Positions 32,570 through 62,899 of a stretch of 64,000 nt of DNA are shown in pieces. A program made the translations under genes and the position numbers. The notes beneath the pieces were generated by a model. It did no database searches and was not told the origin of the DNA. It worked only from the letters and a program-made list of their open reading frames with translations. This DNA is from an uncultured Gammaproteobacteria bacterium (GTDB lineage Bacteria > Patescibacteriota > Patescibacteriia > Magasanikbacterales > UBA922), in NCBI GenBank assembly GCA_964345045.1, contig CAYFPM010000003.1:70038-134037 (forward strand), written 5' to 3'. The first letter of the stretch is position 1. The number at the start of each line of letters is the position of its first letter.

Positions 32570-33712
32570 TCTATTAAAATACTATACGTAATTACCCAAA
32601 ACCATTGGGGTGGGGCCCAAAAATACATCTACGATCTGGCTACAAATTTGCCAGACTCTTTTGAAATTCATGTGGCAATTGGAGCAAAATCCAAGAACGA
32701 ATCTGCTGGACTAATAGAAAAAATAAAAAATAGTAATTATAAAATAACCCTCCACCAAATAGATAATCTAATTAGATCTATCTGCCCCAAAAAAGACATT
32801 GCCGCTATAAAAGATCTAAGAGATTTATACAAAAAACTAAAACCAGACATAGTCCACTTAAATAGTTCCAAAGCTAGTGTAATTGGGAGTTTGGCAAAAT
32901 TAGAAAATACAAAAATTGTTTATACTGCTCATGGTTGGGTTTTTAATGAACCTATGCCAAAAATAAAAAAGTCTATTTACAAAATGGCAGAAAAACACAG
33001 TGCCTCTAAAAAAGATCTTATAATTACTCTTTCGGATAAAGAATACAACCAAGCAATAAAAATACTAAAAATAAAAAAAGAAAAATTGCAAAAAATACAC
33101 ATTGGTGTGCCAGAAAAAAAATTATTATCAAAAACAGAAGCTAAGCAAAAATTAAAGTTAGACAAAAATAAAAAATTAATCTTTGGAACTATTGCTAATT
33201 TTTATCACACCAAAGGATACGATCTTCTATTAAAAGCACTAAAAAAAGAAAAAAATAATTTGAAAGATGCCCAGTTTTTATTTATCGGTGACGGACCAAA
33301 AAAAAATGAGGTAGAAAAATATATAGAAAAAAATAATTTAAAAAATCTGGTTACTATCACCGGATTTGTAAACGATGCTTCTAGCTTTATTAAGGCTTTT
33401 GATTTTTTTGTATTACCTTCTCGCAAAGAAGGGCTCCCCTACACGATCTTGGAATCTATGGTGGCCAAAGTACCCATTATTGCTACCAATGTAGGTGGGA
33501 ACAGTGAAATAATTGAAAATAAAAAGACGGGATTACTAATCCCGCCGGAAAGTATAAATGATTTATCTCAGGCTATTTTGTTTGCTTACAAAAACAAAGA
33601 ACAAATGGAGAAAATGGCAACTACTCTGTACAATGCAAAAAAAGAAAATTATTCTCTTGTAAAAATGTTGGATACTACTGTTCAATCGTACTATTCAATA
33701 CTGAAGCCCTAA
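32570..33712 (+). CDS. Glycosyltransferase family 4.
   Basis: MSIKILYVITQNHWGGAQKY and EGLPYTILESMVAKVPIIATNVGGNSEII are present. The start is set at MSIKIL rather than the ORF-track Met 19 codons upstream. Confidence 0.8.
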   Translation, partial: SIKILYVITQNHWGGAQKYIYDLATNLPDSFEIHVAIGAKSKNESAGLIEKIKNSNYKITLHQIDNLIRSICPKKDIAAIKDLRDLYKKLKPDIVHLNSSKASVIGSLAKLENTKIVYTAHGWVFNEPMPKIKKSIYKMAEKHSASKKDLIITLSDKEYNQAIKILKIKKEKLQKIHIGVPEKKLLSKTEAKQKLKLDKNKKLIFGTIANFYHTKGYDLLLKALKKEKNNLKDAQFLFIGDGPKKNEVEKYIEKNNLKNLVTITGFVNDASSFIKAFDFFVLPSRKEGLPYTILESMVAKVPIIATNVGGNSEIIENKKTGLLIPPESINDLSQAILFAYKNKEQMEKMATTLYNAKKENYSLVKMLDTTVQSYYSILKP

Positions 33713-35705
33713 TTTGATTCTCAACATTTAAACCTTCTTCTGTAAAAGATACCTTTTTCTCTTTGGCTTCGTCCAAAATTTCTATAGATTTTTCTTTGTT
33801 TCCAATTGCATTTTCAAGGAGTGCCAATCTCCACCAACCCTCACCGATTCTTGGATCATCGTCTATAGATTGTTGATATAGGGCTCTGGCTTCATCTACT
33901 TTTTGTAGTTGGACTTTAATTCCAGCCAAAGTAAATATTAACTGTTGTCTTTTTGGAGAAATTTGCAAAGCTTCTTCTGCAACAGACTCTGCTTCTAAGA
34001 GATGAACTTTGTTGCCAGACAAATTAGCTACTGTTTGCAACATTATAGATTGCTGAGCATGAATTCTTACATCTCCTGGATGTAATTCTTTATTTTTATT
34101 GTAGCCTTCATTCGCTACTTCAAACAAATTCTGTGCCAATGGAGATTTATTGGCCTGTACATATTTGTGCAAATTGGCGCTTACAGCTCTACCATAATCA
34201 TTTCTTATATCATCTATATGAGGGGTTGGAATGCTGGTGGCGTAGTCATAAGCCCCTCTAGAATCAAACAGAGAATGTGTTTCTCGTATCGCTACAATAG
34301 TGGCCATATTAGCTCTGGCTGGATTAATATTGGTGCTATAGATAAGCAGCAAAATCACCAAAGTAGTTGTAGCAGTAACTCCAACCGATAAATCTACTTT
34401 GGCACTGCCCACCGAATTAGTTATTTTTTCTTTGCTAATCTGTGAGTTTAAAAACGCCAAAGTAAAAAAGAAATAAAGATAAGAAGTAGGGTTTTCGAAT
34501 ACCGATACAGTTTGCACAAGATGAGCCAAGAAAAAAGCGGTGCCAACTGCAACTATATGAATATCTATTTTTTCTTTTTTGTAAGCTTGCCACAAATAAT
34601 AAATCGTTACACCATATATCCCAAAAAATATTACAACCCCGAGCAAACCTCTTTCGGCCAAAGTATTCAAAGCAATATTGTGAGCATTATCAAACCAGGT
34701 TTCACCATAACCAAATCGTAAAAATTCCGGTCTATAATGCGTATTGAACGCGTAATAAAAATTAGAAGGCCCCCAACCCAAAATAGGTTTTTCTGTCCAA
34801 CTTTTTATAGCTATCCCCCACGCCATGGGTCTGGTACTAGTAGCTTTTAGAGGATCTCTTACCAATCTGGCTACAGCCGATGGCATTTTGTCTACAAAAG
34901 TAGAATCTCTAAACATCCAAAGAGCCCCAAAAGCAACTGCCCCCAAAATTACAAAAGCAAAAAAACCTTTTTTAAGTTTTTCGTTCTTTTTGTTTGCAAG
35001 TACATAAGAAAGCAAAAGAAAGAAAATACCAGCAGCAAAACCCAAAAAGGCACCTCTAGATCCACTAAAAAATATTCCCAAAACACCCAATAGCCCGGCA
35101 AAAGCGGCAAACCATTTCCAATAATCATGGTTCTCTTTTACATAAAGGAGCCAACCAATAGCAGACATAAACAGCCCATAACCACCAACATAAATTGGGT
35201 TACCCAAACTAGACGAGGTTCTCGAGCCACTTTTGTTCAAGAAAAAATCCGGATCTATCCTCTGCATAGCCGCAATCAACATCACCAAACTTCCGCCTAT
35301 CATAAAAAATCTCATCAACCATTTCCAATCTTTCCATTCTGTAACCACAGAAGACAATATGTAGTAATAGATTACATAATGCAAAACCGAAAACAACCCC
35401 AACATACGTTCGTGGTTGTCCCAAAAACTTCTATAAGAATCTACTCCAAAAAAAGTAGAAATAGAAAAACTTAATATAAAAAGACCAACTATAATATTTA
35501 TAGGTGTGAGTTTTGGTTTGAAACGACTCCAATGTAAAGAAAGCAAGATTGTGTATGCTCCAAGCAAAACCAAGACCAATATTCTAAAAGCAATTACTTT
35601 TGGAACAACAAAAGGAAAGATAAAATATCTAGGTAAAAAAAGTAAAGGTATAAAAAAAGTAAATACTGTAAAAAATTTTATTAAAAACTCTAATCTCTTT
35701 TTCAT
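33675..35705 (-). CDS. O-antigen ligase (Wzy_C) family polytopic membrane protein fused to C-terminal TPR repeats.
   Basis: The N-terminal roughly 430 aa are multi-TM with a Wzy_C-like loop. The C-terminal roughly 200 aa are TPR-like helical repeats. Confidence 0.8.
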   Translation of the reverse strand: MKKRLEFLIKFFTVFTFFIPLLFLPRYFIFPFVVPKVIAFRILVLVLLGAYTILLSLHWSRFKPKLTPINIIVGLFILSFSISTFFGVDSYRSFWDNHERMLGLFSVLHYVIYYYILSSVVTEWKDWKWLMRFFMIGGSLVMLIAAMQRIDPDFFLNKSGSRTSSSLGNPIYVGGYGLFMSAIGWLLYVKENHDYWKWFAAFAGLLGVLGIFFSGSRGAFLGFAAGIFFLLLSYVLANKKNEKLKKGFFAFVILGAVAFGALWMFRDSTFVDKMPSAVARLVRDPLKATSTRPMAWGIAIKSWTEKPILGWGPSNFYYAFNTHYRPEFLRFGYGETWFDNAHNIALNTLAERGLLGVVIFFGIYGVTIYYLWQAYKKEKIDIHIVAVGTAFFLAHLVQTVSVFENPTSYLYFFFTLAFLNSQISKEKITNSVGSAKVDLSVGVTATTTLVILLLIYSTNINPARANMATIVAIRETHSLFDSRGAYDYATSIPTPHIDDIRNDYGRAVSANLHKYVQANKSPLAQNLFEVANEGYNKNKELHPGDVRIHAQQSIMLQTVANLSGNKVHLLEAESVAEEALQISPKRQQLIFTLAGIKVQLQKVDEARALYQQSIDDDPRIGEGWWRLALLENAIGNKEKSIEILDEAKEKKVSFTEEGLNVENQIRASVLNSTIEQ

Positions 35706-35731
35706 AAACCTTTCTTTATTTACTTTTTAAA

Positions 35732-36406
35732 TTATTTTTTATAGTGGCCCCATTTTTGTTGATAAACTGAGTTATCTGGATATTTATCTAATAGTTCCTC
35801 TGCCACTAGTTTAGCCTTATCTTTCATATCAAATTTTTCATAAAATCTGATAGCGTGCACCAACAAATCTTGATTATTATCAGTTGCGTTAATCCCTTTT
35901 ACAATAGTTTCTTCTGCTTCGTCTACTTTGTCCATTAGTCCATACTGCATTCTGGATAAAACTATATAGATATCAGCATTTACCGAATTAACTTCGGAAG
36001 CAAGTCTATAGTATTCTTCTGCTTTAGTATAATCTTTTAAATTACTTCTATATACTTCGGCGATATTTCGGTAGCCCAAAATATTGTTACTCTGTAATAC
36101 CAAAGAATTTTGGAAAGCTTCTATAGCTCCTTCGTAATCCTCAAGCAAAATTCTAAAATTACCTATTTCTATCCAAGCTTCCCAAGCATTGGGATTTTCG
36201 TTATAAAATTTCTTAACTTTTTCTAATTTTTCCAAAGTAACTCTTTTTTCATCCTCACCAAAACTGGTGGGGACCTCAAAACCGATAAAAGGATCTTTAC
36301 CCAGACTATTTCCTCCATTATTTAGGCTTTGTCTATATTGATAAAAAATAAACAAACCTGCCATCAAAATAACCAGTAATATACCAATATATAATTTTTT
36401 ATTCAT
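35732..36406 (-). CDS. TPR-repeat protein with an N-terminal membrane anchor.
   Basis: The N-terminus MNKKLYIGILLVILMAGLFIFY is a TM segment. Several TPR-like repeats follow (AWEAWIEIGNFRILLEDYEGAIEAFQNSL...). Confidence 0.7.
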   Translation of the reverse strand: MNKKLYIGILLVILMAGLFIFYQYRQSLNNGGNSLGKDPFIGFEVPTSFGEDEKRVTLEKLEKVKKFYNENPNAWEAWIEIGNFRILLEDYEGAIEAFQNSLVLQSNNILGYRNIAEVYRSNLKDYTKAEEYYRLASEVNSVNADIYIVLSRMQYGLMDKVDEAEETIVKGINATDNNQDLLVHAIRFYEKFDMKDKAKLVAEELLDKYPDNSVYQQKWGHYKK

Positions 36407-36454
36407 AAATATAAATTTTTAAGCCCCTCGATTATATCACGTAGACCTAGGCAA

Positions 36455-36500
36455 AACAACCCCAAAAACAAAACCACCCCGATTTATAACCGGGGTGGTT
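36455..36500 (-). terminator. Intrinsic terminator downstream of the large surface-protein gene.
   Basis: AACCACCCCGatttataacCGGGGTGGTT is a 10-bp stem. On the minus strand it is followed by ttgtttttgggg. Confidence 0.7.
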
Positions 36501-36540
36501 TGTTTTCACTAAACTACCGTTTCTAAGTAAGAAAATTTAC

Positions 36541-39500
36541 TTAGAGAGATAGAACTGCAGGTGTACTTGAGTTGGAGTTCAATCCAGAAACAAGGTAACC
36601 GTTGGTCCAGTCGTTAGTTGTAGTTGCGTGAGTTCCTAGGTGACGGTCAGACCAGATGAAGTCATCGTGTAGACCACTATCGATGTTAGTTACTGTAGAC
36701 ATCAATGTAGCACCTAGAGAGGTTGAACTACCGTTGGTTGATGAAGCATCTGCAAAAGCAGCGTCACCACCAAGACGAGTAGAAATAGAGTCACCAGAGC
36801 TAGCTCCGGAAACAGTACCACGAAGAACGAAGGTACGAGGAGCAGTCTTAGATACACGTACTTCTCTAGCACCTTGGCTTAGACCACCTTCTTCGCTGGT
36901 GTTCAAGTTAACTTCTAGGAATCCGCCTCCACCAATTGAAGTGCTGTCTGCAGATTGTGAGAACAACAAGTCGTCTGGTGAATTTGTAATGTCGTAAACT
37001 TCGAAGTTAGTTACTGTTACAGATGAAGTTGTAACATCGAATGTGAATTTAGCCACACCGATATCACCTGTGTTAGCAGTTACTTTAAACTTGAACAAGT
37101 CGTTTACACCGTTTGTAAGTGTAGAACCAATTGGAAGCTGTGTAATTGTAGGTACAGCAGCGTACAAGTAGTGAGTATTTCCGTTAGGAGCATCGCTACC
37201 TAGGTATTCTACACTACCACTTCCGGTTAGATCACCCTTACCTTCGATGTCTCCGGCAGCGGCGATGTTGAAACCAACAGCATGACCACCAACTGTTACG
37301 TTTTGGTTGCTGGCAACCACGCTTAGGTCAGCTTTTAGGTATACAATCATACCGTCTGTATCATCTTTGTCTACAACGAAAGCGTCGTTGGCAAATTTGA
37401 TAACAGGGGTTGTACTTGTAGGTTGTACGCTTCCCAATCTTACACCATCTTCGTCTTCAAGATACAGCAAGCTGTAATCGTTGTAAGATGAACTGCTGGT
37501 GTCTGTTACACGTTGTGTAAACATGATTTGTTCGATTTCTACATCTTCTGTAGATGTAGCTAGGAATACGAATGATGCCAAAGTAGCACCAGTTGTACCA
37601 CCTGCGAACAATCTGGCAGTTGGGTTAGCACTGTCAGAAGAAACCTGAACAGTACCACCAGAAGTACCAACAGTCATAGCTTGACCACTAGCAGAGTCGA
37701 TAACTTCGCTCACGCTAGAATTGGTGTCTACACCATTGGCAGTTACTTGGTTGGCAGAAGCAGTAGCAAAAGTGTGAGTACCGGCAGTAGCACCACCAGC
37801 GATGTCTACACGTACTTCTACTACAAGCTTAGCACCTTTTTTAACAACGAATTGATCGTCACCACTTAGGTTGAAGGTGAAGTTTTCGTCATTACCGGCA
37901 GTAGCGTCACTACCATTTTGAACTTCGGCTAGTACTTCTACAGTACCAGAACCGTTGAAAGAGTCACCATCTTTGTCAACCCAAAGACGGATGTTTTGTA
38001 GATCTTGAGTAATGGCTGTAGCACTAGTTGTGTCGCTTACGATCAACTGAGTAACTTTCATGTCCTCAGAAGAACCGGCAGCGTCCAACTGAACTTTGGC
38101 TACCAATACTCCACTTGTACCAGGAGCATAAGTCTGTGCTGGAGGTGTAGACAAAGTTGTTACACGCAAAGCAGCAGTCTTAATGGTTTGAGCATTAGCA
38201 CTTACTGCTGACTGTGGAGTAGCATAAGTACCTAGAGTAATAGTGTCACCACTATCTACACCAGTAGCGTCAAAGTTTGTAGTATTACGCATGTCGATAG
38301 CAAATGTAACTGTGTCATCTGCTACAGGAGTAGAATCAATATTGGCCTTTAGGGTTACAATATTGTCTCCTGGTTGTAGAGTAATAGTGTCTGTTGAAGT
38401 GGCATAACCAACTCCAGCAGTAGAACCTACACCATCAACACCACCAGTAAGAGCATTTCCTTCTGCATCGTACAGAATCAAACTGTCAAATGCTTCTGGA
38501 GCAGCAGTACCAGTAGTGGTAATTCTAAAGGTCAAGGTAGAAATATCTACAGCTTCACCAGTTACGTGGAAGTTCCAAGAAGCCAAAGCAACATTGCTTA
38601 CATCTTCTGGAACGTCTTGAGTTTGTACGTCATTTACCTTGGTAACGTTAATTTTACCTTGGGAAATAGTAATAGTGTTAGTCAAAGCACTAGCACTGTT
38701 GGTTGGAGATCTGTAGTAGTTACTATTTAGATCTTTGGCCAATACGTGTGAAACTCTCTTAACGTCCAAGTTAACAGTTCTAGAAGAACCGGCAACTAGG
38801 TCACCGTATACGTCAAAGGTTCTGTTTTTACCTTTTTCTAGCATACAGTCGCTACCACAGGCAGACAAATCAAAGTTGATGTATTTGTCTTTCAATTCTC
38901 CGGTGGCAATAACATTGTTATTGTAGCGAAGTTCGATGTTTTGTACATCGTCATCACTAGAAGTACCAGAGTTGTTCAACATGATACGTTCAATTTGGAA
39001 GTCTTCTGTAGCAACAGTTACTTTCAAACTAGCCAAGTGTACGTCTGTGGTACCTACTTGTTTTGTAGAATTACCAACAGAAGTACCTTCTGCTACAATA
39101 ACAGTACCCAAAGTTACACCAGAGTTCATAGTTACAGCATTACCATCTAGTGGCAAGTTGCCTACAACTGTAGAGTCGGTGTCAATGCTGTAAAGTTCTA
39201 GACTTGGGATGTTTCCACCACCAACAGAACTAGCCATGTCACCTACCAAGGTGTAAGTTTCGGTTTGTCCACTCTTGATAGTAATGTCTTCTGTGAAGGT
39301 TACAAGACTATCAGAGTTAAGAGTTTTACCAGATTCATTCAATAGGTCACCGTTTTCGTCAACTACGTTGATTTTACTAAAATCAGAGTCAACAGCGATG
39401 TTTCCACCACGTTTAACCATGAATGATTTGATAACTACATCACCACCGCTAGCAGTAAATCTAACTTTGGTGAAAGGAACACGAACAGCACTTTTTACTG

Positions 39501-40329
39501 CAAATGTTCCACTTGGTGTGTCGGCAGCCAAAGCAACAGTCAAAGTACCGCTAGAAACAGTACCTTCACCTTCTTCTTCGCCAGGACCTACTACTCCGTC
39601 ACCAGCACCCTGTGTAGGATCACTGTAAACGCTAGCAGCAGTTTTTGAACCAGAAGCTTCTGGAACGCTGTCTAGAACAGATTGAGAGACAGTTTGAACT
39701 TCTGAACTTTTTACAGTTCCGTCAACCATCATTCTTTCACCATTCTCTACATAGTATACGTCACTGCTACCACTGGTTTTTACAAACATACCATCGTGTG
39801 GAGTTGATTCTGTCAACTCATCACCACGAGATACGTAGTTTGGCCAGAATGGATCAGCGATGTCATATACTTTTTTAGCCCAATCGCTTCCGTATAGTTC
39901 GCGAGCTACTTGCTCACTACCAATTTTTGAGATTTTGTTGCCTGGTTCTACAACGTATACGCTTGGTGAAATTTGTACTTTTACCAAAGCTGAACCAGCT
40001 CTGAAGTTGACACCGAAAGGAGCACTTGAAGGTGCTGGGTAAGCGTCAACACAGGTTGTTGGGATTTCTTGTACACCAGAGAAATCTTCGTACCATGTAC
40101 GATATACTTCTGATTTAGGGAAGTACATGCGTTCCATGTCAGAGTTTAGAAGGTATACAGCACTGTTACCAGGAACTTTGAACAAGTCACCGGCTTCTAG
40201 TGTAGGACATTCTTCTGCAGCATGAGCTACCATTGGCACAAGGGCAGCAATACCCATGCTCCAAAGGATAGTTGTTACTACAACTGACCATGTGAAAGCT
40301 TTCTTTCCCATTTGAATTGCATTCGCCAT
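36541..40329 (-). CDS. Large secreted surface protein (1262 aa), S-layer/adhesin-like. It is Thr/Ser/Gly/Val-rich with repeated beta-sandwich (Ig/BIG-like) regions.
   Basis: A signal peptide is present (MANAIQMGKKAFTWSVVVTTILWSMGIAALVPMVAHA|AEE). Complexity is low and there are many short repeats such as TVTxxDV. It has its own terminator and a 230-nt leader. Confidence 0.85.
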   Translation of the reverse strand: MANAIQMGKKAFTWSVVVTTILWSMGIAALVPMVAHAAEECPTLEAGDLFKVPGNSAVYLLNSDMERMYFPKSEVYRTWYEDFSGVQEIPTTCVDAYPAPSSAPFGVNFRAGSALVKVQISPSVYVVEPGNKISKIGSEQVARELYGSDWAKKVYDIADPFWPNYVSRGDELTESTPHDGMFVKTSGSSDVYYVENGERMMVDGTVKSSEVQTVSQSVLDSVPEASGSKTAASVYSDPTQGAGDGVVGPGEEEGEGTVSSGTLTVALAADTPSGTFAVKSAVRVPFTKVRFTASGGDVVIKSFMVKRGGNIAVDSDFSKINVVDENGDLLNESGKTLNSDSLVTFTEDITIKSGQTETYTLVGDMASSVGGGNIPSLELYSIDTDSTVVGNLPLDGNAVTMNSGVTLGTVIVAEGTSVGNSTKQVGTTDVHLASLKVTVATEDFQIERIMLNNSGTSSDDDVQNIELRYNNNVIATGELKDKYINFDLSACGSDCMLEKGKNRTFDVYGDLVAGSSRTVNLDVKRVSHVLAKDLNSNYYRSPTNSASALTNTITISQGKINVTKVNDVQTQDVPEDVSNVALASWNFHVTGEAVDISTLTFRITTTGTAAPEAFDSLILYDAEGNALTGGVDGVGSTAGVGYATSTDTITLQPGDNIVTLKANIDSTPVADDTVTFAIDMRNTTNFDATGVDSGDTITLGTYATPQSAVSANAQTIKTAALRVTTLSTPPAQTYAPGTSGVLVAKVQLDAAGSSEDMKVTQLIVSDTTSATAITQDLQNIRLWVDKDGDSFNGSGTVEVLAEVQNGSDATAGNDENFTFNLSGDDQFVVKKGAKLVVEVRVDIAGGATAGTHTFATASANQVTANGVDTNSSVSEVIDSASGQAMTVGTSGGTVQVSSDSANPTARLFAGGTTGATLASFVFLATSTEDVEIEQIMFTQRVTDTSSSSYNDYSLLYLEDEDGVRLGSVQPTSTTPVIKFANDAFVVDKDDTDGMIVYLKADLSVVASNQNVTVGGHAVGFNIAAAGDIEGKGDLTGSGSVEYLGSDAPNGNTHYLYAAVPTITQLPIGSTLTNGVNDLFKFKVTANTGDIGVAKFTFDVTTSSVTVTNFEVYDITNSPDDLLFSQSADSTSIGGGGFLEVNLNTSEEGGLSQGAREVRVSKTAPRTFVLRGTVSGASSGDSISTRLGGDAAFADASSTNGSSTSLGATLMSTVTNIDSGLHDDFIWSDRHLGTHATTTNDWTNGYLVSGLNSNSSTPAVLSL

Positions 40330-40560
40330 AATTAATTTAATTTCTTTACGTCCCCACGCAATCTGAGTATTCAGACGTCAGGGAGATAAAGTTAGTTTTA
40401 CAACGCACATAACGGCTCGGACCGAACCTCGACCTTTGCTACGCGCTTATGCCCGATTTTATCCTCGTTTAGAGGAACCACCATTACTGTATGGCATTAG
40501 AGAGTCCAATTTGAACTAACTAATGCCACACAGTAAAGTGTTCGGACAAATTAATAAAAA
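40330..40560 (-). promoter_or_regulatory. Long, relatively GC-rich structured leader/promoter region upstream of the surface-protein gene.
   Basis: The 230 nt are non-coding. On the minus strand they contain a 9-bp inverted repeat (TGGCATTAG...CTAATGCCA) and other hairpins. The exact TSS is unknown. Confidence 0.4.
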
Positions 40561-41991
40561 TTAATTTTCTAAATTATTTTCTTCTACAACAGTATCTTCC
40601 ATTTCTTCTTTTACCTCGTCAAAGCTCGCCTCAGGACGAGCGTCGACGGGTTCCTCTTTATTTTCTAGATTTTCAATTTCTTCTACTACTTTGGCAGCAT
40701 CGTTTACTACTTGTTTTACTTCTACTACCAATTCTTTAACTGTCTTTTTTACCTCTGCTAATTCTTGTACCTTTTGCAAAGCACCTTCTAGATCATCATT
40801 TTCTATTAAGCTATCCACTTCTACCAAAGTTTCACCAGCCTTTTTAGTAGCTTCTACTGTTGTTTCTCCTACTTCGTCTACAGTTTCTTTTACAGTCTTT
40901 TCTTTATCATTATTCTTAATTTCCTCTTCATTTATATTTTCTTCTACATTATTTTCTTCTGGTTCTTCGGAAGAATTCTCTTCTACAACTTCTTCGGTTA
41001 CTTCTTCTGTTTCAGCTTCTTTTACTACTTTGGCTACCGGAATTGTACTAAGAGTAGAACTGGAAGAAACCAAAATTCCTGTTTCTTCTAGTTCTGTATC
41101 CAAGGCTTCTATTTCGGATACGATTCTATCTATTCTTTTTTCTATTTTTTCTTTTACTTCTTCTTTGTTTACACCAGCTTCAGCATCTTCTTTCTTTTTT
41201 ACCAATACTTCTACGGCTTTTACACCGGTGTCTTGGATCAAGTTTTCTACTTCTCCCACTTCTTTGGTCAAATCTTTTGATTCTTGTTCTTCTTCTGCTA
41301 TTTCTTCTAGGTTTTCTGTTTCTTCATCACCAGCTTCTGTTTCCTTTTCCAATTCTGTAGGTTCGATAATATCTTTTTTCTCTCCCAAAGCTAGTAATAT
41401 CTCTTCTGTTTTTTCTTCTACTACTTTGGCTATGGCTACAGCTTGTTTTGGAGATTTTGATTCTGTTTTTTCCAAACTTTTGTTAGCAGATTCTATTTTC
41501 TTTTTCAAAGACTTTATAGAAGCAGCGGCTTGTTTGGTATTTGTAGCTTTTTTAAATTCTTCTACTTTTACAGCTGCATGTTTTAGATTGGTGGCAGCCT
41601 TTCCTTCTTCCGAACCAATTACAGTAGCTACCAAAAGTTCTGTGGTTTCGGCTGCTAATTTTACACCATATAGAGCTTCTCCAGGCAAACTATCTTGTGA
41701 AGCGCTAACACTAGCAATCCAACCTCCTACAGCCACAATTCCTACCAAAAATACTGTTAGACTAAATCTAGTTGCCAAAAGTAATTTGTTTGGAACAAAA
41801 ATGTGTAAAATTCCTGAAAGACTTTCCAATAAACCATTTGCACTAAAAGAGGTTTTTTCTTTTGTTTCTTGTGAAGTTGTGATTGTGCTTAACAATTGTT
41901 TTTTGTTTTCCAAAACCCAAGAAGGATCAGGGTTTACCTGACTTTTTGATTCTCTAATTGCTTTTAGTTGTGCAGCGAGTTCTTTACTCAT
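40561..41991 (-). CDS. Putative anti-sigma factor. It has a single TM and a DUF5667-like extracytoplasmic domain with an acidic, Glu-rich C-terminus.
   Basis: It lies immediately downstream of the ECF sigma gene with an 8-nt overlap. The TM is RFSLTVFLVGIVAVGGWIASV. The C-terminus is E/K-rich, repetitive and predicted coiled-coil. Confidence 0.6.
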   Translation of the reverse strand: MSKELAAQLKAIRESKSQVNPDPSWVLENKKQLLSTITTSQETKEKTSFSANGLLESLSGILHIFVPNKLLLATRFSLTVFLVGIVAVGGWIASVSASQDSLPGEALYGVKLAAETTELLVATVIGSEEGKAATNLKHAAVKVEEFKKATNTKQAAASIKSLKKKIESANKSLEKTESKSPKQAVAIAKVVEEKTEEILLALGEKKDIIEPTELEKETEAGDEETENLEEIAEEEQESKDLTKEVGEVENLIQDTGVKAVEVLVKKKEDAEAGVNKEEVKEKIEKRIDRIVSEIEALDTELEETGILVSSSSTLSTIPVAKVVKEAETEEVTEEVVEENSSEEPEENNVEENINEEEIKNNDKEKTVKETVDEVGETTVEATKKAGETLVEVDSLIENDDLEGALQKVQELAEVKKTVKELVVEVKQVVNDAAKVVEEIENLENKEEPVDARPEASFDEVKEEMEDTVVEENNLEN

Positions 41992-42541
41992 ATTTATCTT
42001 CCAAAAGTTCTTTTAACTTATTTATAGCTCTATGTAGTGTTACACGCACACTACTGGCTTTTTTATCCAGAACTTCGGCGATTTCTTTGGTACTAAGACC
42101 TTCTACATGTCTTAGATGAATAACATCTTGGTATTCTTGTTTTAAAGATTTTATAGTTTCTAATAACTGCTCGGCATCCTGACTAACTGCAGTCTCGTGA
42201 TGTAAATCGGTTTTTGAATTTATTCCAACCGCTTCTTCTATTGGCAGCTCTTTTCTTTTGGCTCTGTCTCTGTAAACATCTACAATCTTGTTGCGAGCGA
42301 TAGCGTAAACCAAGGCTCTAAAGCTTTTTATCTCTATATCCTTATTCTTGGTTAAATAATCCCAAGCTTTTAGAAAAACCTCACTAGTGACATCCTCGGC
42401 CTCTTCTTTGTTGGATATTTTGAAATAAACGAACCTATATATTGGTTCTACGTATTTGTCGTACAAAACAGCATAAGATTCGGCATCTTTGTTGTTGCGA
42501 ACCTTGTACAAGAACAATTTTTCTTTAATATTGCTGTTCAT
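41984..42541 (-). CDS. RNA polymerase sigma-70 factor, ECF subfamily.
   Basis: Region 2 reads YVEPIYRFVYFKISNKEEAEDVTSEVFLKAW and region 4 reads LSTKEIAEVLDKKASSVRVTLHRAINKL. I chose the start at the ATG (MNSNIKE) rather than the upstream TTG. Confidence 0.85.
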   Translation of the reverse strand: MNSNIKEKLFLYKVRNNKDAESYAVLYDKYVEPIYRFVYFKISNKEEAEDVTSEVFLKAWDYLTKNKDIEIKSFRALVYAIARNKIVDVYRDRAKRKELPIEEAVGINSKTDLHHETAVSQDAEQLLETIKSLKQEYQDVIHLRHVEGLSTKEIAEVLDKKASSVRVTLHRAINKLKELLEDKYE

Positions 42542-42908
42542 AAGAGTAGACGAGAAAATAGGAAAAGTGTTACACCTAAATATCAAAATGCCTATAACGG
42601 CGCTTATTATACATTATTATTATATGTTTGAAAACGTACCTTATCAGGACAAATTCAGTCTTTGTTCCAACTTTTTTACTTCTTTTTATCAAATTTTAGA
42701 ACGGCATATTTATACCAAATTATCTACAAAAAGTCAACCCCAACGACCACCTTTTGTATAGACTATTGTATACAAATACAGGAATTTTTAGTCTTTTTTA
42801 GTAGAAATTTAGAGCCAAAAACAATTCTAAAAACTTAATTTTTTAAATTTTTGAATACCAAAATTATTCTCTATAAATGTTTTTTGCCAAAATATTAGAC
42901 AAAAAATC

Positions 42909-42937
42909 TTGACAAAATCGCTTAAAAATGATAAATT
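42909..42937 (+). promoter_or_regulatory. Sigma70-like promoter: TTGACA, a 17-nt spacer, then TAAATT. It lies upstream of the HTH gene.
   Basis: cTTGACAaaatcgcttaaaaatgaTAAATT. TATAAT also appears a few nt downstream. Confidence 0.45.
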
Positions 42938-42971
42938 GTATACACTATAATATACAAAAACAGTCAAAAAT

Positions 42972-43283
42972 ATGACTGAGGAACACAAAGAAATAGTCCG
43001 AATCTCCATTTCAGAAGCAGCTCGATTGTTTGGGGTAAATGCCCAAACTATTCGTAGAGCTATCAAAAATGGTGAAGTGACCTACGTAGTAGTGGCTGGC
43101 CGATACAAGCTTAATTTTGAAAGCGTTTTGAAATGGTCTCAGAAAAAAACCACTGTCAAAAACAAAACAAATAGATATGGAATTGGCCAATATGTAGACA
43201 AATGGAAAATATCCAATACTCTCTACTCGCCAAACAAAAAAAGCGTCCGGCCTGTGGACGAAAACGAAACAGACAAACAATAA
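42972..43283 (+). CDS. Excisionase-family (HTH_17-like) helix-turn-helix DNA-binding protein.
   Basis: ISISEAARLFGVNAQTIRRAIKNGEV is a typical excisionase/MerR-type HTH. The protein is 103 aa. Confidence 0.7.
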   Translation: MTEEHKEIVRISISEAARLFGVNAQTIRRAIKNGEVTYVVVAGRYKLNFESVLKWSQKKTTVKNKTNRYGIGQYVDKWKISNTLYSPNKKSVRPVDENETDKQ

Positions 43284-43394: not shown

Positions 43395-43703
43395 CTAGCT
43401 ACCCTCGATCTCGAGGTGGCCGGCACGAGTGTTGGCGTTGTAGAAGCACTGCATCGACATCTCGTTCTGGCCCACCCGCAGGTAGCCCTTGATACAGAAC
43501 ATGCCCGGCGAGCCCGACTCGTACTCGAGTCCGGTAACCCTCACCTGCAGCTCCCGCACGCTGGCTCCGGACGCCATTGGTATGGCGTGGAACGTGAGCA
43601 GCCAGGGCCGCTCCGTGTCGTCGAAAGCCCGAGTGAACGCGTTGATCACGTCCGGGGCACTGGGGTTCTTGCAAGTCTCCTGGATATCGTAGCGAGTGGT
43701 CAT
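43395..43703 (-). CDS. Hypothetical 102-aa protein encoded by a compositionally foreign gene (about 60% G+C by eye).
   Basis: A strong GAGGAGGG Shine-Dalgarno lies 5 nt upstream of the ATG at 43703. The sequence is not low-complexity. The two overlapping longer ORFs are treated as GC shadow frames. Confidence 0.6.
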   Translation of the reverse strand: MTTRYDIQETCKNPSAPDVINAFTRAFDDTERPWLLTFHAIPMASGASVRELQVRVTGLEYESGSPGMFCIKGYLRVGQNEMSMQCFYNANTRAGHLEIEGS

Positions 43704-53991: not shown

Positions 53992-54066
53992 GTTACTCCC
54001 TTTCTTCTATCGAAGACATAGTAAAATATCAATAATTTGAGCAAATGTCAAGTATTATTTTGAAAC

Positions 54067-54095
54067 TTTTTTGGCTTGACATCCCCGCAATATAG
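54067..54095 (+). promoter_or_regulatory. Sigma70-like promoter: TTGACA, a 17-nt spacer, then TAGACT.
   Basis: TTGACAtccccgcaatatagtgcTAGACT. The -35 context TTGACATCCC is identical to the promoter at 13512. Confidence 0.45.
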
Positions 54096-54158
54096 TGCTA
54101 GACTGATCAGTCTTTCATAATTTATAGTGAAAGTAAGTTCTTTTTATTTCTACTAGCC

Positions 54159-54209
54159 GGTTGAACACGAGTTTCTAGCTTGAAGGAGGTTAGAACCTCG
54201 TGTTCAACC
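54159..54209 (+). promoter_or_regulatory. Leader hairpin with a 13-bp stem. Its loop contains a GAAGGAGG Shine-Dalgarno that precedes a 15-codon GTG uORF (54200..54247). The uORF stop overlaps the main ATG as ATGA.
   Basis: GGTTGAACACGAG...CTCGTGTTCAACC followed by aaaaaattttt. This is a possible attenuator or translational-coupling element. Confidence 0.35.
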
Positions 54210-54243
54210 AAAAAATTTTTCCAAATAGAAAAGGAAAAGAAGC

Positions 54244-55737
54244 ATGAATCACAGCTACGAAATTTGGTCCAGGCAACTGATAAACGCGGCAGACAAGGCC
54301 CTCCAAGATGTCGCTGCCCAACGAAAGCCCAACATGGGCTGGTGGCAAAGCTACTTGAAGCAATACAAGTTGCTAGGTGGAAAAACAGAAAAACTAGAAC
54401 GCTCTCCGGTGCTCGAGGCGGCCAACAATGTCTTTCATGTTTGGATAGCTCTTACCAACAGTATTCCGCTGTTGGTAGGGGTAGAGACAGGTATGGCCGA
54501 TCGCCACTACCTAGAAGCCTTTGTCCCAGACGAGTTCTTGGCGGCTATGACCGCCATCTTCTACGACATCTTGCCCCCTCACCAGAGGAATATCCTCATC
54601 AACAACCTGATTACGGCTCGTTTTCAAGAGGCTGCGACACCCTGGATTGCAGACCAGCGACAGCAGGCTCCGCAAACTCTAGAAAACACAAATATAAACA
54701 AGAGAGAAAATCTCTATCGAGAAATTCAAGCTCTTGCTAGGCTTTGGTTTGCTTCCACCAAGTTCGATCCTTTACCTCAGGCCGCTATCCAGTTCGGGCC
54801 ACAGGGGATCGAGCTAGATGCCACTCGATCGGAAAAAGTTGCTCACAATCTTTTGGCCAGTGAATTTGGTTTTGGTCCGGGTGGAGACCCCGAACCAGAA
54901 CACCGTCGCTGGGCCAAAAGGGTGATTGCCCAGTGTCGACACCGGCATCCTTGGGCTAGACCAGAGCGACTCGAGCGCTACACCGATGCCTTGCAGACGG
55001 TTCGAGACTACTATATTGGCGAGGATTCTGGAGAAGCTAGCGAGAAAATCCGTGATCAGGCCGAGAGGATGATGAGTTCTTTTGGTCTAGATGACGATTT
55101 TGCCTTGATCATGATCTTGGCAGAAGCTTTGGCACTAGCCACTGACTTTTTCTTGCACCCCAATATGTCGAACGAAGACAGGCTACGGGTGGTAGAGCAC
55201 ACCACTTACCAGCAGCTAATTCACAATGAGCTGAACCAACACGAGTGGCGAGTGATCTTGCATACTTTCTTGAGCATTGCCAGCAAAGGATCTCCTCTGG
55301 GAGTTCTTCGTATCGAACAGCTAGATCCGGATCTAGAAGAGGCATTGCAAACCAGGTTCAGAGCTATGGCTCTCATGTTCATGAAGGATCATGACTACAC
55401 GGTCAAAGAACCTCTGCACGTCTTGGCCGAACAAAAAGCCAACAGCCGTATGGCCAAAGCCAAACGTTTGGCAATGAGCAGCTTCTGGTGGGTCTTGCGC
55501 TTTGTACCGGTCTTGCTTTTCTCACGCGACCGAGCCAAGTTTGCTGCCAAGTGGCAGGAACTGCGCTCTATCTGGGGTCTACCTCCCAAGCCAGTCGAGG
55601 AAGTGGTAGAGACAGAGGCTTTGCCAGAGTCGGCCGACAAGACTGATCCTACAACAGAGGATGTAGAGACCACCGGCGATGTTGCCGAGGTCATCCCCAT
55701 GCGTTCTGCGGTTGGGGATCGTCCTTCCGAAAAATAA
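54244..55737 (+). CDS. Hypothetical soluble 497-aa protein of no recognisable family (elevated G+C).
   Basis: The long ORF is in a different frame from the Arg-rich overlapping ORF 54180..54740. Tandem terminators follow it. Confidence 0.65.
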   Translation: MNHSYEIWSRQLINAADKALQDVAAQRKPNMGWWQSYLKQYKLLGGKTEKLERSPVLEAANNVFHVWIALTNSIPLLVGVETGMADRHYLEAFVPDEFLAAMTAIFYDILPPHQRNILINNLITARFQEAATPWIADQRQQAPQTLENTNINKRENLYREIQALARLWFASTKFDPLPQAAIQFGPQGIELDATRSEKVAHNLLASEFGFGPGGDPEPEHRRWAKRVIAQCRHRHPWARPERLERYTDALQTVRDYYIGEDSGEASEKIRDQAERMMSSFGLDDDFALIMILAEALALATDFFLHPNMSNEDRLRVVEHTTYQQLIHNELNQHEWRVILHTFLSIASKGSPLGVLRIEQLDPDLEEALQTRFRAMALMFMKDHDYTVKEPLHVLAEQKANSRMAKAKRLAMSSFWWVLRFVPVLLFSRDRAKFAAKWQELRSIWGLPPKPVEEVVETEALPESADKTDPTTEDVETTGDVAEVIPMRSAVGDRPSEK

Positions 55738-55751
55738 TTAGCTAGTAGTTT

Positions 55752-55848
55752 GGTACGAATAGTATTCGTACCTCCCATTCCTTTTGTTCTAAAATTTTTA
55801 GACCAAAAGCAAATAAAAAATCCTGAGTTACACTCAGGATTTTTTATT
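55752..55848. terminator. Tandem terminators between convergent genes.
   Basis: GGTACGAATagtATTCGTACC with a T-rich tail is at 55752-55790. aaaaaaTCCTGAGTtacACTCAGGAttttttatttc is at 55815-55848 and is bidirectional. Confidence 0.65.
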
Positions 55849-55980
55849 TCTCACTAAAACTTTTTTGCAAAGTTTTACTGGGAAGGTACGCCGGGCCGGA
55901 GCAGCTACTCGAGTTTCATCCGAAGATGATCCAAGAGAAGTGCTCCGGCCCTGGTTTAGGCGCGGACGATGAGAAGCTTG

Positions 55981-57957: not shown

Positions 57958-58437
57958 TCAAAGCCAGCTTCTCGAAAGATGCTGACGAGTTACAAGTTCT
58001 GGCGCCCCGGAATGGAGCTCCACAATCGTGGTGCCTTGTCCCAGGCGCCTCGGGTCGTTGGGCAGCTAGGTAGCCATCCGCAGAGTTTGGTTTTTTTGTA
58101 GTCATAGAGAGTGCTAACGAAAGATCCAAGTGGTAATAGAAAAAGATACTTCTAATCCACTGCTTTACGCTCAGTATGACTAATTAACAAAAACAAACTC
58201 TGCAGACAACTTGCCTAGCAAAATCTTCTCATCGATTGTAATGAACAATCGTGTCTACTGTTTGAGTAGTGACACATAAAATATTTAGTAAACAACTAAC
58301 TATTTTATCTATCACAACTTTTTTACAAACTCTCTTTTGCCTTCAAACTTTTTTTAAAAGCACAAGAGAATTCGAGGTGTGGGCAGGGCACCTCTTCGAA
58401 CCGAAGTCCGAAGAGGGCCTGCCCACTGAAGCAAGAA

Positions 58438-58851: not shown

Positions 58852-58868
58852 GATCTGGTTCTCCTTAT

Positions 58869-62617: not shown

Positions 62618-62899
62618 TGTGAAATCGGACGGAAAACCGCCCCGAATTGGGAATCCGAGGTAACGGCTTCCACAATTTTTGGCTTGTAATCCACATAAGC
62701 CAAAAATTGTAAAAGCCGATCGGTAAAAAACCGTCCAAACATTATAAAGAACTCCGCTTTGGGTACAATTGTCCCACTTTAAGCGAACGGATAAAGATAC
62801 CACAAAATCAAACTTTTGTCAAGATTTTTTGCTAAATTTAGCTAAAATAAGCAAAAAACGCCCAAAGTAGGACGTTTTTATACTTGTTTAAATTGTTTT

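What the first reader, a model, noticed from the sequence alone, without database searches (positions are those of the whole stretch)
36541..42541. S-layer-like giant surface protein under a dedicated ECF sigma and anti-sigma module with a 230-nt structured leader
The gene order on the minus strand is ECF sigma, then an overlapping single-TM anti-sigma with a Glu-rich DUF5667-like ectodomain, then a 230-nt GC-richer leader with inverted repeats, then the 1262-aa secreted S/T/G-rich protein, then a strong terminator. This suggests envelope-stress-controlled expression of the main surface protein. The leader may carry the ECF-dependent promoter or a stabilising 5' stem-loop, as seen in S-layer mRNAs.
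Basis: partly seen in the sequence, partly recalled or inferred. Interest (0 to 1): 0.55.

Follow-up and report, generated by a model that had tools for sequence, protein, structure and literature searches.

The report
ECF operon with structured RNA spacer
In an uncultured ultra-small bacterium (Candidatus Magasanikbacteria), a stress-type sigma factor, its membrane anti-sigma factor, a previously undescribed folded RNA spacer of about 200 nt and a giant secreted surface protein form one conserved gene cassette that probably acts as a single operon, which suggests how these cells control their outer coat.

Summary
On the minus strand lie an ECF sigma gene (41984-42541), an overlapping single-pass anti-sigma gene (40561-41991), a 231-nt non-coding gap (40330-40560), a 1262-aa secreted protein gene (36541-40329) and a strong terminator (36471-36501). 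The same order is found in all 23 related Magasanikbacteria loci that hold upstream DNA.

The gap is a conserved structured RNA. It folds with z = -8.5, its helices covary, its loops are invariant, and it matches no Rfam family. It keeps its sequence signature even where the protein has fallen to about 30% identity.

A BldN-like TGTAAC-N16-CGTCT motif occurs once per locus, 6 nt upstream of the sigma ATG, which implies a leaderless mRNA. A housekeeping-type extended -10 promoter lies further upstream.

No promoter of either type and no terminator separates the anti-sigma gene from the big gene, whereas 21 of 22 loci have a terminator just after the big gene. The best reading is therefore a tricistronic, autoregulated operon. 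The RNA probably uncouples surface-protein output from regulator output by processing, stabilisation or translation control.

"S-layer" and "envelope stress" remain unproven.

The parts
42709..42737 (-). Candidate housekeeping (sigma-A type) promoter of the operon: TTGACT, 17-nt spacer, (TGG)TATAAA with an extended -10.
   Evidence: Read from the sequence. An extended -10 matching TGnTATAAT at 7 of 8 positions or better lies within 260 nt upstream of the ECF -35 in 21 of 24 loci, against 14.5% of random 260-nt windows.
42548..42574 (-). ECF-type promoter TGTAAC-N16-CGTCT: -35 at 42569-42574, -10 at 42548-42552. CGTCT ends 6 nt before the sigma ATG, so the transcript would be leaderless.
   Evidence: This is the only match in the window, with 0.04 expected by chance. 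There is one copy per locus in 24 of 24 loci, and CGTCT-N6-ATG holds in 22 of 24. PWM scores are 19-30 here against at most 15.6 anywhere else in 455 kb. The motif resembles the BldN motif CGTAAC-N16-CGTTGA (PMC2375139).
41984..42541 (-). ECF (group IV) sigma factor, 185 aa, closest to the BldN family.
   Evidence: Pfam Sigma70_r2 and r4_2. TIGR02937 scores 90.9 bits, above the 42.9 cut-off. TIGR02952 (BldN family) is the best hit at 125.9 bits but falls below its 206 cut-off. The closest solved chain is 6dxo_A, E = 4e-18. The public gene call agrees on this start.
40561..41991 (-). Putative anti-sigma factor, 476 aa. It has a cytoplasmic N-terminus of about 70 aa, one TM segment, and then a DUF5667-like, Glu/Lys-rich ectodomain. 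It is translationally coupled to sigma by an 8-nt overlap.
   Evidence: TM segment, 23% Glu. DUF5667 is below threshold in the window protein but is hit by 17 of 22 orthologues. No relative has a solved structure.
40330..40560 (-). Conserved structured intercistronic RNA (whole gap), non-coding.
   Evidence: z = -8.5. All 24 orthologous gaps have z between -3.3 and -13.9. No Rfam family matches. There is no conserved small ORF. RNAalifold on five relatives recovers P1, P3 and P4.
40479..40540 (-). Helix P1, a long hairpin. Its base is an 11-bp sequence-conserved duplex, UACUGURUGGC (40525-40535) paired with GCCAUACAGUA (40485-40495). The tip varies in length (29-86 nt between the arms across loci).
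   Evidence: The 3' arm is nearly invariant. Changes in the 5' arm are mostly transitions that keep G-U or U-G wobble pairs on this strand.
40405..40446 (-). Helix P3: an 8-9 bp outer stem and a 5-6 bp inner hairpin, separated by the invariant unpaired loop AAAGGUCGA (40429-40437).
   Evidence: On 19 sequences, 87.9% of cells are paired against 63% in shuffles. Twelve of 13 pairs show compensatory double changes. The covariation score is 0.717 against 0.27, with 0 of 500 shuffles as high. Covariance model R1 hits exactly one site per locus.
40344..40391 (-). Helix P4: a stem of about 12 bp closed by a conserved internal loop (G-AY on the 5' side, NCG-C/U on the 3' side), with a variable inner hairpin. 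It ends 14 nt before the AUG, followed by an AU-rich spacer with no Shine-Dalgarno sequence (40330-40343).
   Evidence: At least 9 of 12 ungapped pairs form in 23 of 28 non-redundant loci, with 4-6 standard pair types per position. The distance from the P4 stem to the AUG is 13-18 nt in the main clade and 21-23 nt in the distant clade.
36541..40329 (-). 1262-aa secreted protein. It consists of a signal peptide, a conserved N-terminal module (aa ~40-235), a Gly/Glu linker, tandem Ig-like beta-sandwich domains and a conserved C-terminus.
   Evidence: There are 170 homologues of about 1250 aa; every one that carries a taxon name is labelled Magasanikbacteria, most are unnamed, and none has an S-layer or other informative Pfam domain (no Pfam hit for the window protein). 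AlphaFold on aa 1-640 gives pLDDT 84.6, and Foldseek matches integrin-leg and adhesin Ig arrays. The N-terminal module has pLDDT 95.9 and weakly resembles EccB repeat domains, E = 4e-4. That module occurs in 3689 protein clusters, fused to MBG, S-layer (PF07752) and SBBP domains.
36471..36501 (-). Intrinsic terminator that ends the transcription unit.
   Evidence: An equivalent GC-rich stem plus T-run lies 23-91 nt after the big gene in 21 of 22 loci. No canonical terminator lies in 20 of 24 anti-sigma/big-gene gaps.

Best explanation
The four elements form one conserved transcription unit in Candidatus Magasanikbacteria: [sigma-A-type promoter + ECF promoter] -> ECF sigma -> anti-sigma -> structured RNA -> giant surface protein -> terminator.

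The BldN-like ECF sigma recognises TGTAAC-N16-CGTCT directly in front of its own start codon. This gives a leaderless, positively autoregulated mRNA. The single-pass DUF5667-type anti-sigma factor holds the sigma factor in check.

No promoter of either type and no terminator lies between the anti-sigma gene and the big gene. Transcription therefore reads through, and the surface protein is the output gene of the module.

The intercistronic RNA of about 200 nt (helices P0-P4, with the invariant loop AAAGGUCGA, a sequence-fixed P1 duplex and a conserved P4 internal loop placed about 14 nt from the AUG) is a cis-acting element. It sets the expression of the downstream cistron independently of the two regulator cistrons. 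The most likely mechanism is processing and 5' stabilisation of the surface-protein mRNA, and/or control of Shine-Dalgarno-independent translation initiation.

Shown here: the synteny, the promoter motif with its uniqueness and spacing, the absence of terminators and promoters in the gap, the RNA structure with covariation, and the secreted multi-Ig architecture.

Inferred: co-transcription, a leaderless start, anti-sigma function, the RNA mechanism, and the protein's role as a cell-surface layer.
For: - Synteny: the order holds in 23 of 23 genome loci. The RNA pattern scan of metagenomes gave 15 hits. Of these, 13 lie 100-120 nt upstream of a big-gene homologue, including ones at 29-35% identity. 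The other 2 are chance hits in unrelated DNA, and model R1 rejects them.
- ECF promoter: one copy per locus, always at sigma, with fixed N6 spacing to the ATG. No second copy lies upstream of the big gene.
- Housekeeping promoter: an extended -10 is found in 21 of 24 loci upstream of sigma, but in only 3 of 24 in the gap plus 150 nt.
- Terminators: none in 20 of 24 gaps, and a strong one after the big gene in 21 of 22 loci.
- Position of the RNA: in several loci P1 starts 4-11 nt after the anti-sigma stop codon, which leaves no room for an intergenic promoter.
- RNA structure: z = -8.5; P3 covariation; P1 wobble pattern; P4; RNAalifold consensus; model R1 is specific.
- Sigma and anti-sigma.
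- Translation context: the genome makes essentially no use of Shine-Dalgarno sequences.
Against: - There are no transcript data, so co-transcription and the leaderless start are inferred from sequence only.
- A weak, non-extended -10 promoter in the AT-rich stretch before P1, or inside the 3' end of the anti-sigma gene, cannot be excluded. -10-like hexamers can be picked out by eye in several loci.
- Placing a presumably abundant structural protein third in a regulator operon is unusual.
- The window anti-sigma protein itself misses the DUF5667 threshold and has no recognisable anti-sigma domain.
- The sigma factor falls below the BldN-family cut-off.
- No S-layer domain was found in the big protein, and its abundance is unknown.
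Confidence: 0.6

Rival explanations
1. The big gene is a separate transcription unit. It has its own strong, non-ECF promoter at the 3' end of the anti-sigma gene or the start of the gap. The structured RNA is simply a long 5' UTR that stabilises an abundant mRNA, as in Lactobacillus S-layer genes. The ECF pair is only a conserved neighbour.
For: S-layer mRNAs are known to owe their long half-lives to long structured 5' UTRs (PMC3666127). AT-rich stretches with -10-like hexamers precede P1 in many loci. Structural genes that need high output usually have their own promoters.
Against: No conserved extended -10 lies before the big gene (3 of 24 loci), whereas 21 of 24 have one before sigma. The TPR gene, which starts the next unit, has a perfect TGATATAAT. 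No terminator follows the anti-sigma gene. In L004, L005, L016 and L045 the RNA starts 4-11 nt after the stop codon. Invariant loops are not needed for a mere stabiliser.
Confidence: 0.25
2. The RNA is a sensor: a riboswitch or a protein-binding riboregulator. It gates translation of the surface protein in response to a metabolite (for example a cell-wall or glycan precursor) or a protein (for example the surface protein itself or a ribosomal or RNA-binding protein). This can coexist with the operon model.
For: The RNA has a multi-helix architecture with invariant unpaired nucleotides (AAAGGUCGA, G-AY/NCG-C) and a sequence-fixed duplex. These are conserved across lineages whose proteins share only about 30% identity. 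P4 lies at a fixed distance from the AUG. The motif is exclusively associated with one gene family.
Against: No recognisable expression platform is present: there is no terminator and no Shine-Dalgarno sequence to sequester. No alternative mutually exclusive fold was found. The motif sits upstream of a single gene family, which is more typical of protein-mediated autoregulation than of a metabolite riboswitch. No Rfam relative exists.
Confidence: 0.3
3. The gap encodes a stand-alone small RNA. It would be either an ECF-dependent sRNA processed from the 3' end of the sigma/anti-sigma mRNA, or an independent gene, and it would act in trans.
For: ECF regulons in other bacteria include sRNAs (this is general knowledge and was not tested here). 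The RNA is highly structured and conserved.
Against: No terminator or conserved 3' end lies before the big-gene AUG. P4 keeps a fixed distance to the AUG. The RNA is never found away from the big gene in 455 kb + 99 kb of related DNA or in the metagenome scan.
Confidence: 0.07
4. The inverted repeats act at the DNA level, as an operator for a transcription factor such as the neighbouring HTH_17 protein, or as a repeat or mobile element, and not as RNA.
For: The P1 arms are sequence-conserved inverted repeats. Their half-sites CTGTA/TACAG resemble the TGTATACA palindromes in the HTH-sigma divergent region.
Against: The spacing between the arms varies from 29 to 86 nt. P3 and P4 covary with compensatory changes and G-U pairs, which only make sense in RNA of this strand. 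There is one copy per locus and no other copies.
Confidence: 0.03

Closest known systems
Sigma-BldN / RsbN of Streptomyces, an ECF sigma factor that drives the chaplin and rodlin surface-sheath genes
   Same: - The window sigma's best family match is the BldN family (TIGR02952), and its closest solved chain is 6dxo_A.
- The promoter GTAAC-N16-CGT is shared: BldN uses CGTAAC-N16-CGTTGA (PMC2375139), and here it is TGTAAC-N16-CGTCT.
- The anti-sigma factor is a single-pass membrane protein without a canonical anti-sigma domain (PMC6101532).
- The output is a secreted cell-surface structural protein.
   Different: - The sigma factor scores below the BldN cut-off (125.9 against 206 bits).
- The anti-sigma factor shows no sequence similarity to RsbN and carries DUF5667 instead.
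- The target gene lies inside the same operon, behind a structured RNA, rather than in a dispersed regulon.
- The promoter abuts the ATG, which implies a leaderless mRNA.
- The host is a CPR bacterium with a reduced genome.
Long structured 5' UTRs of S-layer mRNAs (Lactobacillus acidophilus/crispatus slpA)
   Same: A long, stable secondary structure lies upstream of a very large secreted surface-protein gene. In lactobacilli this structure is credited with transcript half-lives of about 15 min (PMC3666127).
   Different: - Here the structure is intercistronic, not clearly at a primary 5' end.
- It has conserved single-stranded loops and a sequence-fixed duplex across a whole class.
- There is no sequence or Rfam similarity.
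- The Lactobacillus genes have their own tandem promoters.
Autoregulated ECF sigma/anti-sigma operons (such as sigW-rsiW and rpoE-rseA)
   Same: The sigma and anti-sigma genes are translationally coupled. An ECF promoter sits in front of the sigma gene (positive autoregulation), and an additional housekeeping promoter lies upstream.
   Different: - There is no zf-HC2, RsiW or RseA-type anti-sigma domain.
- The operon is extended by a 3.8-kb structural gene.
- The geometry is leaderless.
- Within the 455 kb of related DNA held here, the promoter motif occurs only once per locus; whole genomes were not scanned, so the true regulon size is unknown.
Gram-positive S-layer proteins built from a wall-anchoring module plus Ig-like arrays (such as SbsB and Sap/EA1); recalled from knowledge, not tested by fold match
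   Same: Both have a signal peptide, an N-terminal module that behaves as a portable surface anchor (3689 clusters, fused to other extracellular domains), and then a chain of beta-sandwich domains.
   Different: - There is no SLH, CWB2 or PF07752 domain in this protein.
- The N-terminal module only weakly resembles EccB repeat domains.
- Lattice formation and abundance are unknown.
Intercistronic processing and stability elements in operons (such as B. subtilis cggR-gapA and E. coli papBA); recalled from knowledge
   Same: A regulator gene is placed upstream of a highly expressed structural gene in one transcript. RNA structure or cleavage between them gives differential stability.
   Different: No cleavage site has been mapped here. 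The element is much larger and more conserved than known examples.

Membership tests
ECF (group IV) sigma-70 factors | [quoted passage not shown] | tested here: met
   Pfam Sigma70_r2 (E = 3e-11) and Sigma70_r4_2 (E = 1e-13), 185 aa. TIGR02937 scores 90.9 bits against a cut-off of 42.9.
ECF (group IV) sigma-70 factors | An autoregulatory promoter of the AAC-N16/17-CGT type upstream of its own gene. | tested here: met
   TGTAAY-N16-CGTCT occurs once per locus in 24 of 24 loci. Its function as a promoter has not been tested.
BldN family (TIGR02952) | A score at or above the curated cut-off of 206.45 bits. | tested here: not met
   This is the best hit, but it scores only 125.9 bits. The sigma factor is a relative, not a member.
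Membrane anti-sigma factor | Encoded directly downstream of sigma and coupled to it, with a single TM segment between the cytoplasmic and extracytoplasmic parts. | tested here: met
   There is an 8-nt overlap with the sigma stop codon, and one hydrophobic segment at aa ~70-98. This is conserved in 22 loci.
Membrane anti-sigma factor | A recognisable anti-sigma domain (zf-HC2, RsiW, RskA, RseA or RsbN-like), or demonstrated binding to sigma. | tested here: not met
   No Pfam or NCBIfam hit, and no relative in the PDB, including RsbN. Binding cannot be tested here.
DUF5667 (PF18915) | A score at or above the gathering threshold of 27 bits. | tested here: inconclusive
   The window protein scores 16.2 bits (E = 0.015), and only on its N-terminal fragment. 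Of 22 orthologues, 17 match, with a best E-value of 3.6e-11.
S-layer protein | A known S-layer or anchoring domain (SLH, CWB2, PF07752 and similar). | tested here: not met
   No Pfam or NCBIfam family is found in the 1262-aa protein.
S-layer protein | The most abundant envelope protein, forming a 2-D lattice. | not testable with these tools
   This needs proteomics and cryo-ET.
Any Rfam RNA family | A covariance-model match at the gathering score. | tested here: not met
   There are no matches in the whole window. In E-value mode only generic miRNA-hairpin hits below threshold appear.
Riboswitch / cis-regulatory structured RNA | A conserved secondary structure supported by covariation, at a fixed position upstream of one gene family. 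| tested here: met
Riboswitch / cis-regulatory structured RNA | An expression platform (terminator/antiterminator or RBS sequestration) and a ligand. | tested here: not met
   There is no terminator in the gap and no Shine-Dalgarno sequence to sequester. A ligand cannot be tested here.
Leaderless mRNA | The transcription start coincides with the A of the start codon. | not testable with these tools
   Only the geometry is shown: the -10 element CGTCT ends 6 nt before the ATG in 22 of 24 loci.

The most novel reading that the evidence does not exclude
The intercistronic RNA is a new class of riboregulator. It is a ligand- or protein-sensing RNA, or a structured ribosome-recruitment site, in a lineage that has dispensed with Shine-Dalgarno sequences. 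It gates production of the cell-surface coat of Magasanikbacteria. It is embedded in a self-amplifying, leaderless ECF operon whose anti-sigma ectodomain monitors that same coat.
Probability: 0.3. Interest if true: 0.8.

Novelty: new variant of a known kind. Interest (0 to 1): 0.62.

Why it matters
CPR/Patescibacteria are ultra-small, uncultured, mostly episymbiotic bacteria. Their envelope mediates their whole lifestyle, yet almost nothing is known about how they regulate genes.

This locus offers a concrete and testable regulatory circuit in such an organism:
- a BldN-like ECF sigma factor with a sharply defined promoter motif;
- a probable leaderless start;
- a conserved partner anti-sigma factor;
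- a giant surface protein that is probably glycosylated, as the output gene;
- a new structured RNA family with clear covariation that no database describes.

The RNA is conserved more strongly than the protein it precedes, which marks it as functionally important. It gives RNA biologists a new motif for structure probing and ligand or protein fishing. It gives CPR biologists a candidate major surface-protein locus to look for in metaproteomes and by cryo-ET.

Tried and rejected
- ECF promoter in the leader. The window's P4 contains GACGTCT, with TGTAAAAC 19 nt upstream. This looked promising, but the spacing is wrong (19, not 16). The PWM score in the leader is at most 1.5, and CGTC is not conserved in other loci, where only GAY is kept. 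Rejected.
- Rfam identity. The only hit is mir-8 and similar miRNA hairpin models below threshold. This is a generic-hairpin artefact.
- Small leader peptide. No conserved ORF lies in the gap.
- Attenuator or terminator in the gap. None found.
- Alignment. MAFFT alignment of the P4 region was out of register, so RNAalifold missed P4 on the 19-sequence set. I replaced this with anchor-based pair counting and with a five-sequence alignment of close relatives.
- Locus search. The search for related loci failed with the 24-sequence alignment because it had no conserved stretch. It worked with 13 closer sequences.
- Structure prediction. The C-terminal half was not modelled.
- Word-indexed search with the N-terminal module returned only fragments of the same family. 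The exhaustive HMMER search was needed.
- Literature. Searches for DUF5667, for Magasanikbacteria with S-layer, and for ECF sigma with Patescibacteria found nothing relevant.
- Covariation between the last base of the AAAGGUCGA loop (A or G) and the P4 loop (AC or AU) was looked for by eye. None was seen.

Full report
**Observation**

The minus strand of the window carries five elements in order:
- an ECF sigma gene (41984-42541);
- a 476-aa gene that overlaps it by 8 nt (40561-41991);
- a 231-nt gap (40330-40560);
- a 1262-aa gene (36541-40329);
- a 14-bp GC-rich hairpin with a T-run (36471-36501).

The sigma factor has Pfam Sigma70_r2 and r4_2 and passes the NCBIfam ECF superfamily threshold.

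The 476-aa protein has one hydrophobic segment (aa ~70-98), and its ectodomain is 23% Glu. It has no Pfam hit at full length. Its N-terminal 147 aa give a sub-threshold DUF5667 hit (16.2 bits). However, 17 of 22 orthologues match DUF5667, down to E = 3.6e-11. 'DUF5667-like' is therefore fair.

The gap has GC 0.40 in a genome of about 0.33. It folds to -89.2 kcal/mol against -51.6 +/- 4.4 for shuffles, giving z = -8.5.

The big protein has a signal-peptide-like N-terminus and is rich in Thr, Ser, Val and Gly. Public gene calls on the source contig give the same gene boundaries.

**Organism and conservation**

The big protein has 170 homologues of about 1250 aa. Every one that carries a taxon name is labelled Candidatus Magasanikbacteria (a CPR lineage), though most are unnamed, and none has a known function.

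A scan of species-representative genomes returned 31 loci. In every locus with upstream DNA (23 of 23), the order is sigma, anti-sigma, a gap of 168-521 nt, then the big gene.

The surrounding genes are also syntenic across 14-27 loci, depending on the gene:
- upstream, a divergently transcribed and very conserved HTH_17 gene, a DUF11-like gene and a GT4 glycosyltransferase;
- downstream, a TPR gene and a Wzy_C (O-antigen-ligase-like) plus TPR gene.

This looks like a cell-envelope locus. The Wzy_C neighbour and the Ser/Thr richness make glycosylation of the big protein plausible, but that is inference.

**The promoter**

Aligning the DNA upstream of the sigma genes revealed GTGTAACAyTTT-N11-CGTCT in all 24 sequences. 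There is exactly one copy per locus. CGTCT lies 6 nt before the ATG in 22 of 24 loci and 3 nt before it in the other two.

In the window the site is at 42548-42574(-). It is the only match in 64 kb, with 0.04 expected by chance.

A PWM built from these sites scores 19-30 at sigma. It scores at most 2 anywhere in the 700 nt upstream of the big gene in every locus. It scores at most 15.6 anywhere else in 455 kb.

The motif is the classical ECF type and is nearly the published BldN motif, CGTAAC-N16-CGTTGA (PMC2375139). This matches the sigma factor's best family hit (the BldN family, below cut-off) and its closest solved chain, 6dxo_A.

With the -10 element ending at about -7 relative to the A of the ATG, the ECF-driven transcript should be leaderless. 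This is inferred from geometry only.

A housekeeping-type promoter lies further upstream. In the window it reads TTGACT-N17-(TGG)TATAAA at 42709-42737(-). An extended -10 matching at 7 of 8 positions or better is present in 21 of 24 loci, against 14.5% of random 260-nt windows.

**Nothing separates the anti-sigma gene from the big gene**

The same extended -10 scan finds a match in only 3 of 24 gaps, even with the last 150 nt of the anti-sigma gene included. By contrast, the next gene (TPR) has a perfect TGATATAAT right after the terminator.

No canonical intrinsic terminator lies in 20 of 24 gaps. The four weak hits are parts of the RNA helices. Yet 21 of 22 loci have a strong terminator 23-91 nt after the big gene.

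In several loci the conserved RNA begins only 4-11 nt after the anti-sigma stop codon.

Together these results favour a tricistronic operon fed by two promoters in front of sigma. A weak, unrecognised promoter cannot be excluded without transcript data.

**The RNA**

The gaps share a common architecture.

- P1 is a long hairpin. Its base is an 11-bp sequence-conserved duplex, UACUGURUGGC paired with GCCAUACAGUA, and its tip varies in length. The 3' arm is almost invariant. The 5' arm changes mostly by transitions that leave G-U or U-G pairs on this strand.
- P2 is a variable hairpin. In the close clade, a closing helix P0 is also present.
- P3 is an 8-9 bp stem and a 5-6 bp hairpin, separated by the invariant unpaired AAAGGUCGA. 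On 19 sequences, 87.9% of cells pair, against 63% in shuffles and 37-47% when partners are slid. Twelve of 13 pairs show compensatory double changes. The covariation score is 0.717 against 0.27, with 0 of 500 shuffles as high.
- P4 is a stem of about 12 bp closed by a conserved internal loop (G-AY ... NCG-C/U). It has 4-6 standard pair types per position across 28 non-redundant loci. Its stem ends 13-18 nt before the AUG in the main clade and 21-23 nt in a distant clade.

RNAalifold on five close relatives independently recovers P1, P3 and P4. All 24 gaps have z-scores between -3.3 and -13.9. There is no conserved small ORF and no Rfam family.

A covariance model of P3 (R1) hits exactly one site per locus, always in the gap, across 455 kb of related DNA.

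A strict sequence pattern (5' arm, 3' arm, AAGGTCG) scanned over the metagenome collection gave 15 hits:
- 13 lie 100-120 nt upstream of a big-gene homologue, six of them at only 29-35% protein identity;
- the other two are chance matches in unrelated DNA, and R1 does not recognise them.

The RNA is therefore specific to this gene family and is conserved more tightly than the protein.

**What the RNA may do**

The genome makes essentially no use of Shine-Dalgarno sequences: 37 gene starts were inspected. The RNA therefore cannot work by sequestering a Shine-Dalgarno sequence. It has no terminator, so it is not a classical attenuator.

In an operon, the two regulators are needed in small amounts and the structural protein in large amounts. 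Given this, the most economical role is a processing and 5'-stabilising element and/or a translation-initiation platform for the third cistron. This is analogous to the stabilising long 5' UTRs of Lactobacillus S-layer mRNAs (PMC3666127).

The invariant loops and the sequence-fixed duplex go beyond what a stabiliser needs. They leave room for a specific protein or ligand partner. This step is inference.

**The protein**

AlphaFold on aa 1-640 (pLDDT 84.6) shows a compact N-terminal alpha/beta module (aa ~40-235), a disordered Gly/Glu linker, and then beta-sandwich domains. Foldseek finds only generic Ig-like arrays, such as integrin legs and Gram-positive adhesins.

Modelled alone, the N-terminal module has pLDDT 95.9 and weakly resembles EccB repeat domains (E = 4e-4, low TM-score).

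An exhaustive HMMER search finds this module in 3689 protein clusters. It sits at N- or C-termini of proteins of 200-2200 aa, including ones that carry MBG, S-layer (PF07752) or SBBP domains. It therefore behaves as a portable surface-anchoring module that has no Pfam family.

This architecture fits an S-layer-like or adhesin-like surface protein. It does not prove a lattice-forming S-layer.

**Comparison and verdict**

The closest known system is sigma-BldN/RsbN of Streptomyces, an ECF sigma factor whose regulon is the chaplin and rodlin surface sheath (PMC6101532). The two share the sigma subfamily neighbourhood, the promoter type, a non-canonical single-pass anti-sigma factor and a surface-structure output.

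They differ in four ways:
- family membership (the sigma factor is below the BldN cut-off, and the anti-sigma factor is unrelated to RsbN);
- the in-operon target gene;
- the leaderless geometry;
- the novel intercistronic RNA.

I rate this a new variant of a known kind, with a new RNA family inside it.

The link between the ECF module and the surface protein is real and conserved, and the leader is structured. But the ECF promoter is not in the leader, and 'envelope stress' and 'S-layer' remain hypotheses.

Noticed in passing
window 43395-43703 (-): A 102-aa ORF of about 60% GC with a strong Shine-Dalgarno sequence (AGAGGAGG). It sits in a 33%-GC genome whose other genes have none. It has no Pfam hit and is absent from all 31 related loci, so it looks like a foreign insertion between the HTH_17 and DUF11-like genes.
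   Followed up: partly
window ~54000-62800: An island with GC 0.47-0.66 in a genome of about 0.33. It has long overlapping ORFs on both strands, and none has a Pfam hit. It may be foreign DNA or a chimeric assembly.
   Followed up: partly
window 42972-43283 (+) and the 430-nt divergent region 42542-42971: An HTH_17 (excisionase/MerR-like) 103-aa gene is transcribed divergently from sigma. It is 52-78% identical across 22 loci, which is more conserved than sigma or the big protein. The palindrome TGTATACA occurs twice in the divergent region (42767 and 42937). The whole window has 3 copies against 0.79 expected, and similar palindromes are present in other loci. This is a candidate operator and an extra regulator of the operon.
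   Followed up: partly
window 42709-42737 (-): A near-consensus sigma-A-type promoter, TTGACT-N17-(TGG)TATAAA, lies about 135 nt upstream of the ECF promoter. An extended -10 is conserved in 21 of 24 loci. The simple promoter scan missed it because its last base is A.
   Followed up: yes
window 33675-36406 (-) and 36431-36439: A TPR gene and a Wzy_C (O-antigen-ligase-like) plus TPR gene follow the big gene in 27 of 27 loci. They have their own perfect extended -10, TGATATAAT, right after the terminator. This may be a glycosylation or assembly partner of the surface protein.
   Followed up: partly
whole window: None of the 37 gene starts inspected has a Shine-Dalgarno sequence at a functional distance, so this lineage appears to initiate translation without one. 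The window also holds no tRNA and no Rfam family in 64 kb.
   Followed up: partly
big protein aa 36-245 (window 39595-40224, -): The N-terminal module has no Pfam family but occurs in 3689 representative protein clusters. It sits at either terminus of proteins of 200-2200 aa, including ones with MBG, S-layer PF07752 and SBBP domains. It is probably an undescribed surface or cell-wall anchoring domain.
   Followed up: partly
L002, L003, L007, L008, L021, L026, L034-L042 (the part of the gap upstream of P1): Many loci, though not the window, carry extra conserved hairpins between the anti-sigma stop codon and P1. These include a small GUGC-loop-GCAC hairpin. In those species the structured RNA therefore extends right up to the stop codon.
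   Followed up: no
L018, L020, L023, L028: A divergent clade (big protein 37-39% identical) keeps the AAAGGUCGA loop but lacks the P1 consensus and the P4 loop signature. Its gaps are 373-521 nt long with different upstream helices.
   Followed up: no
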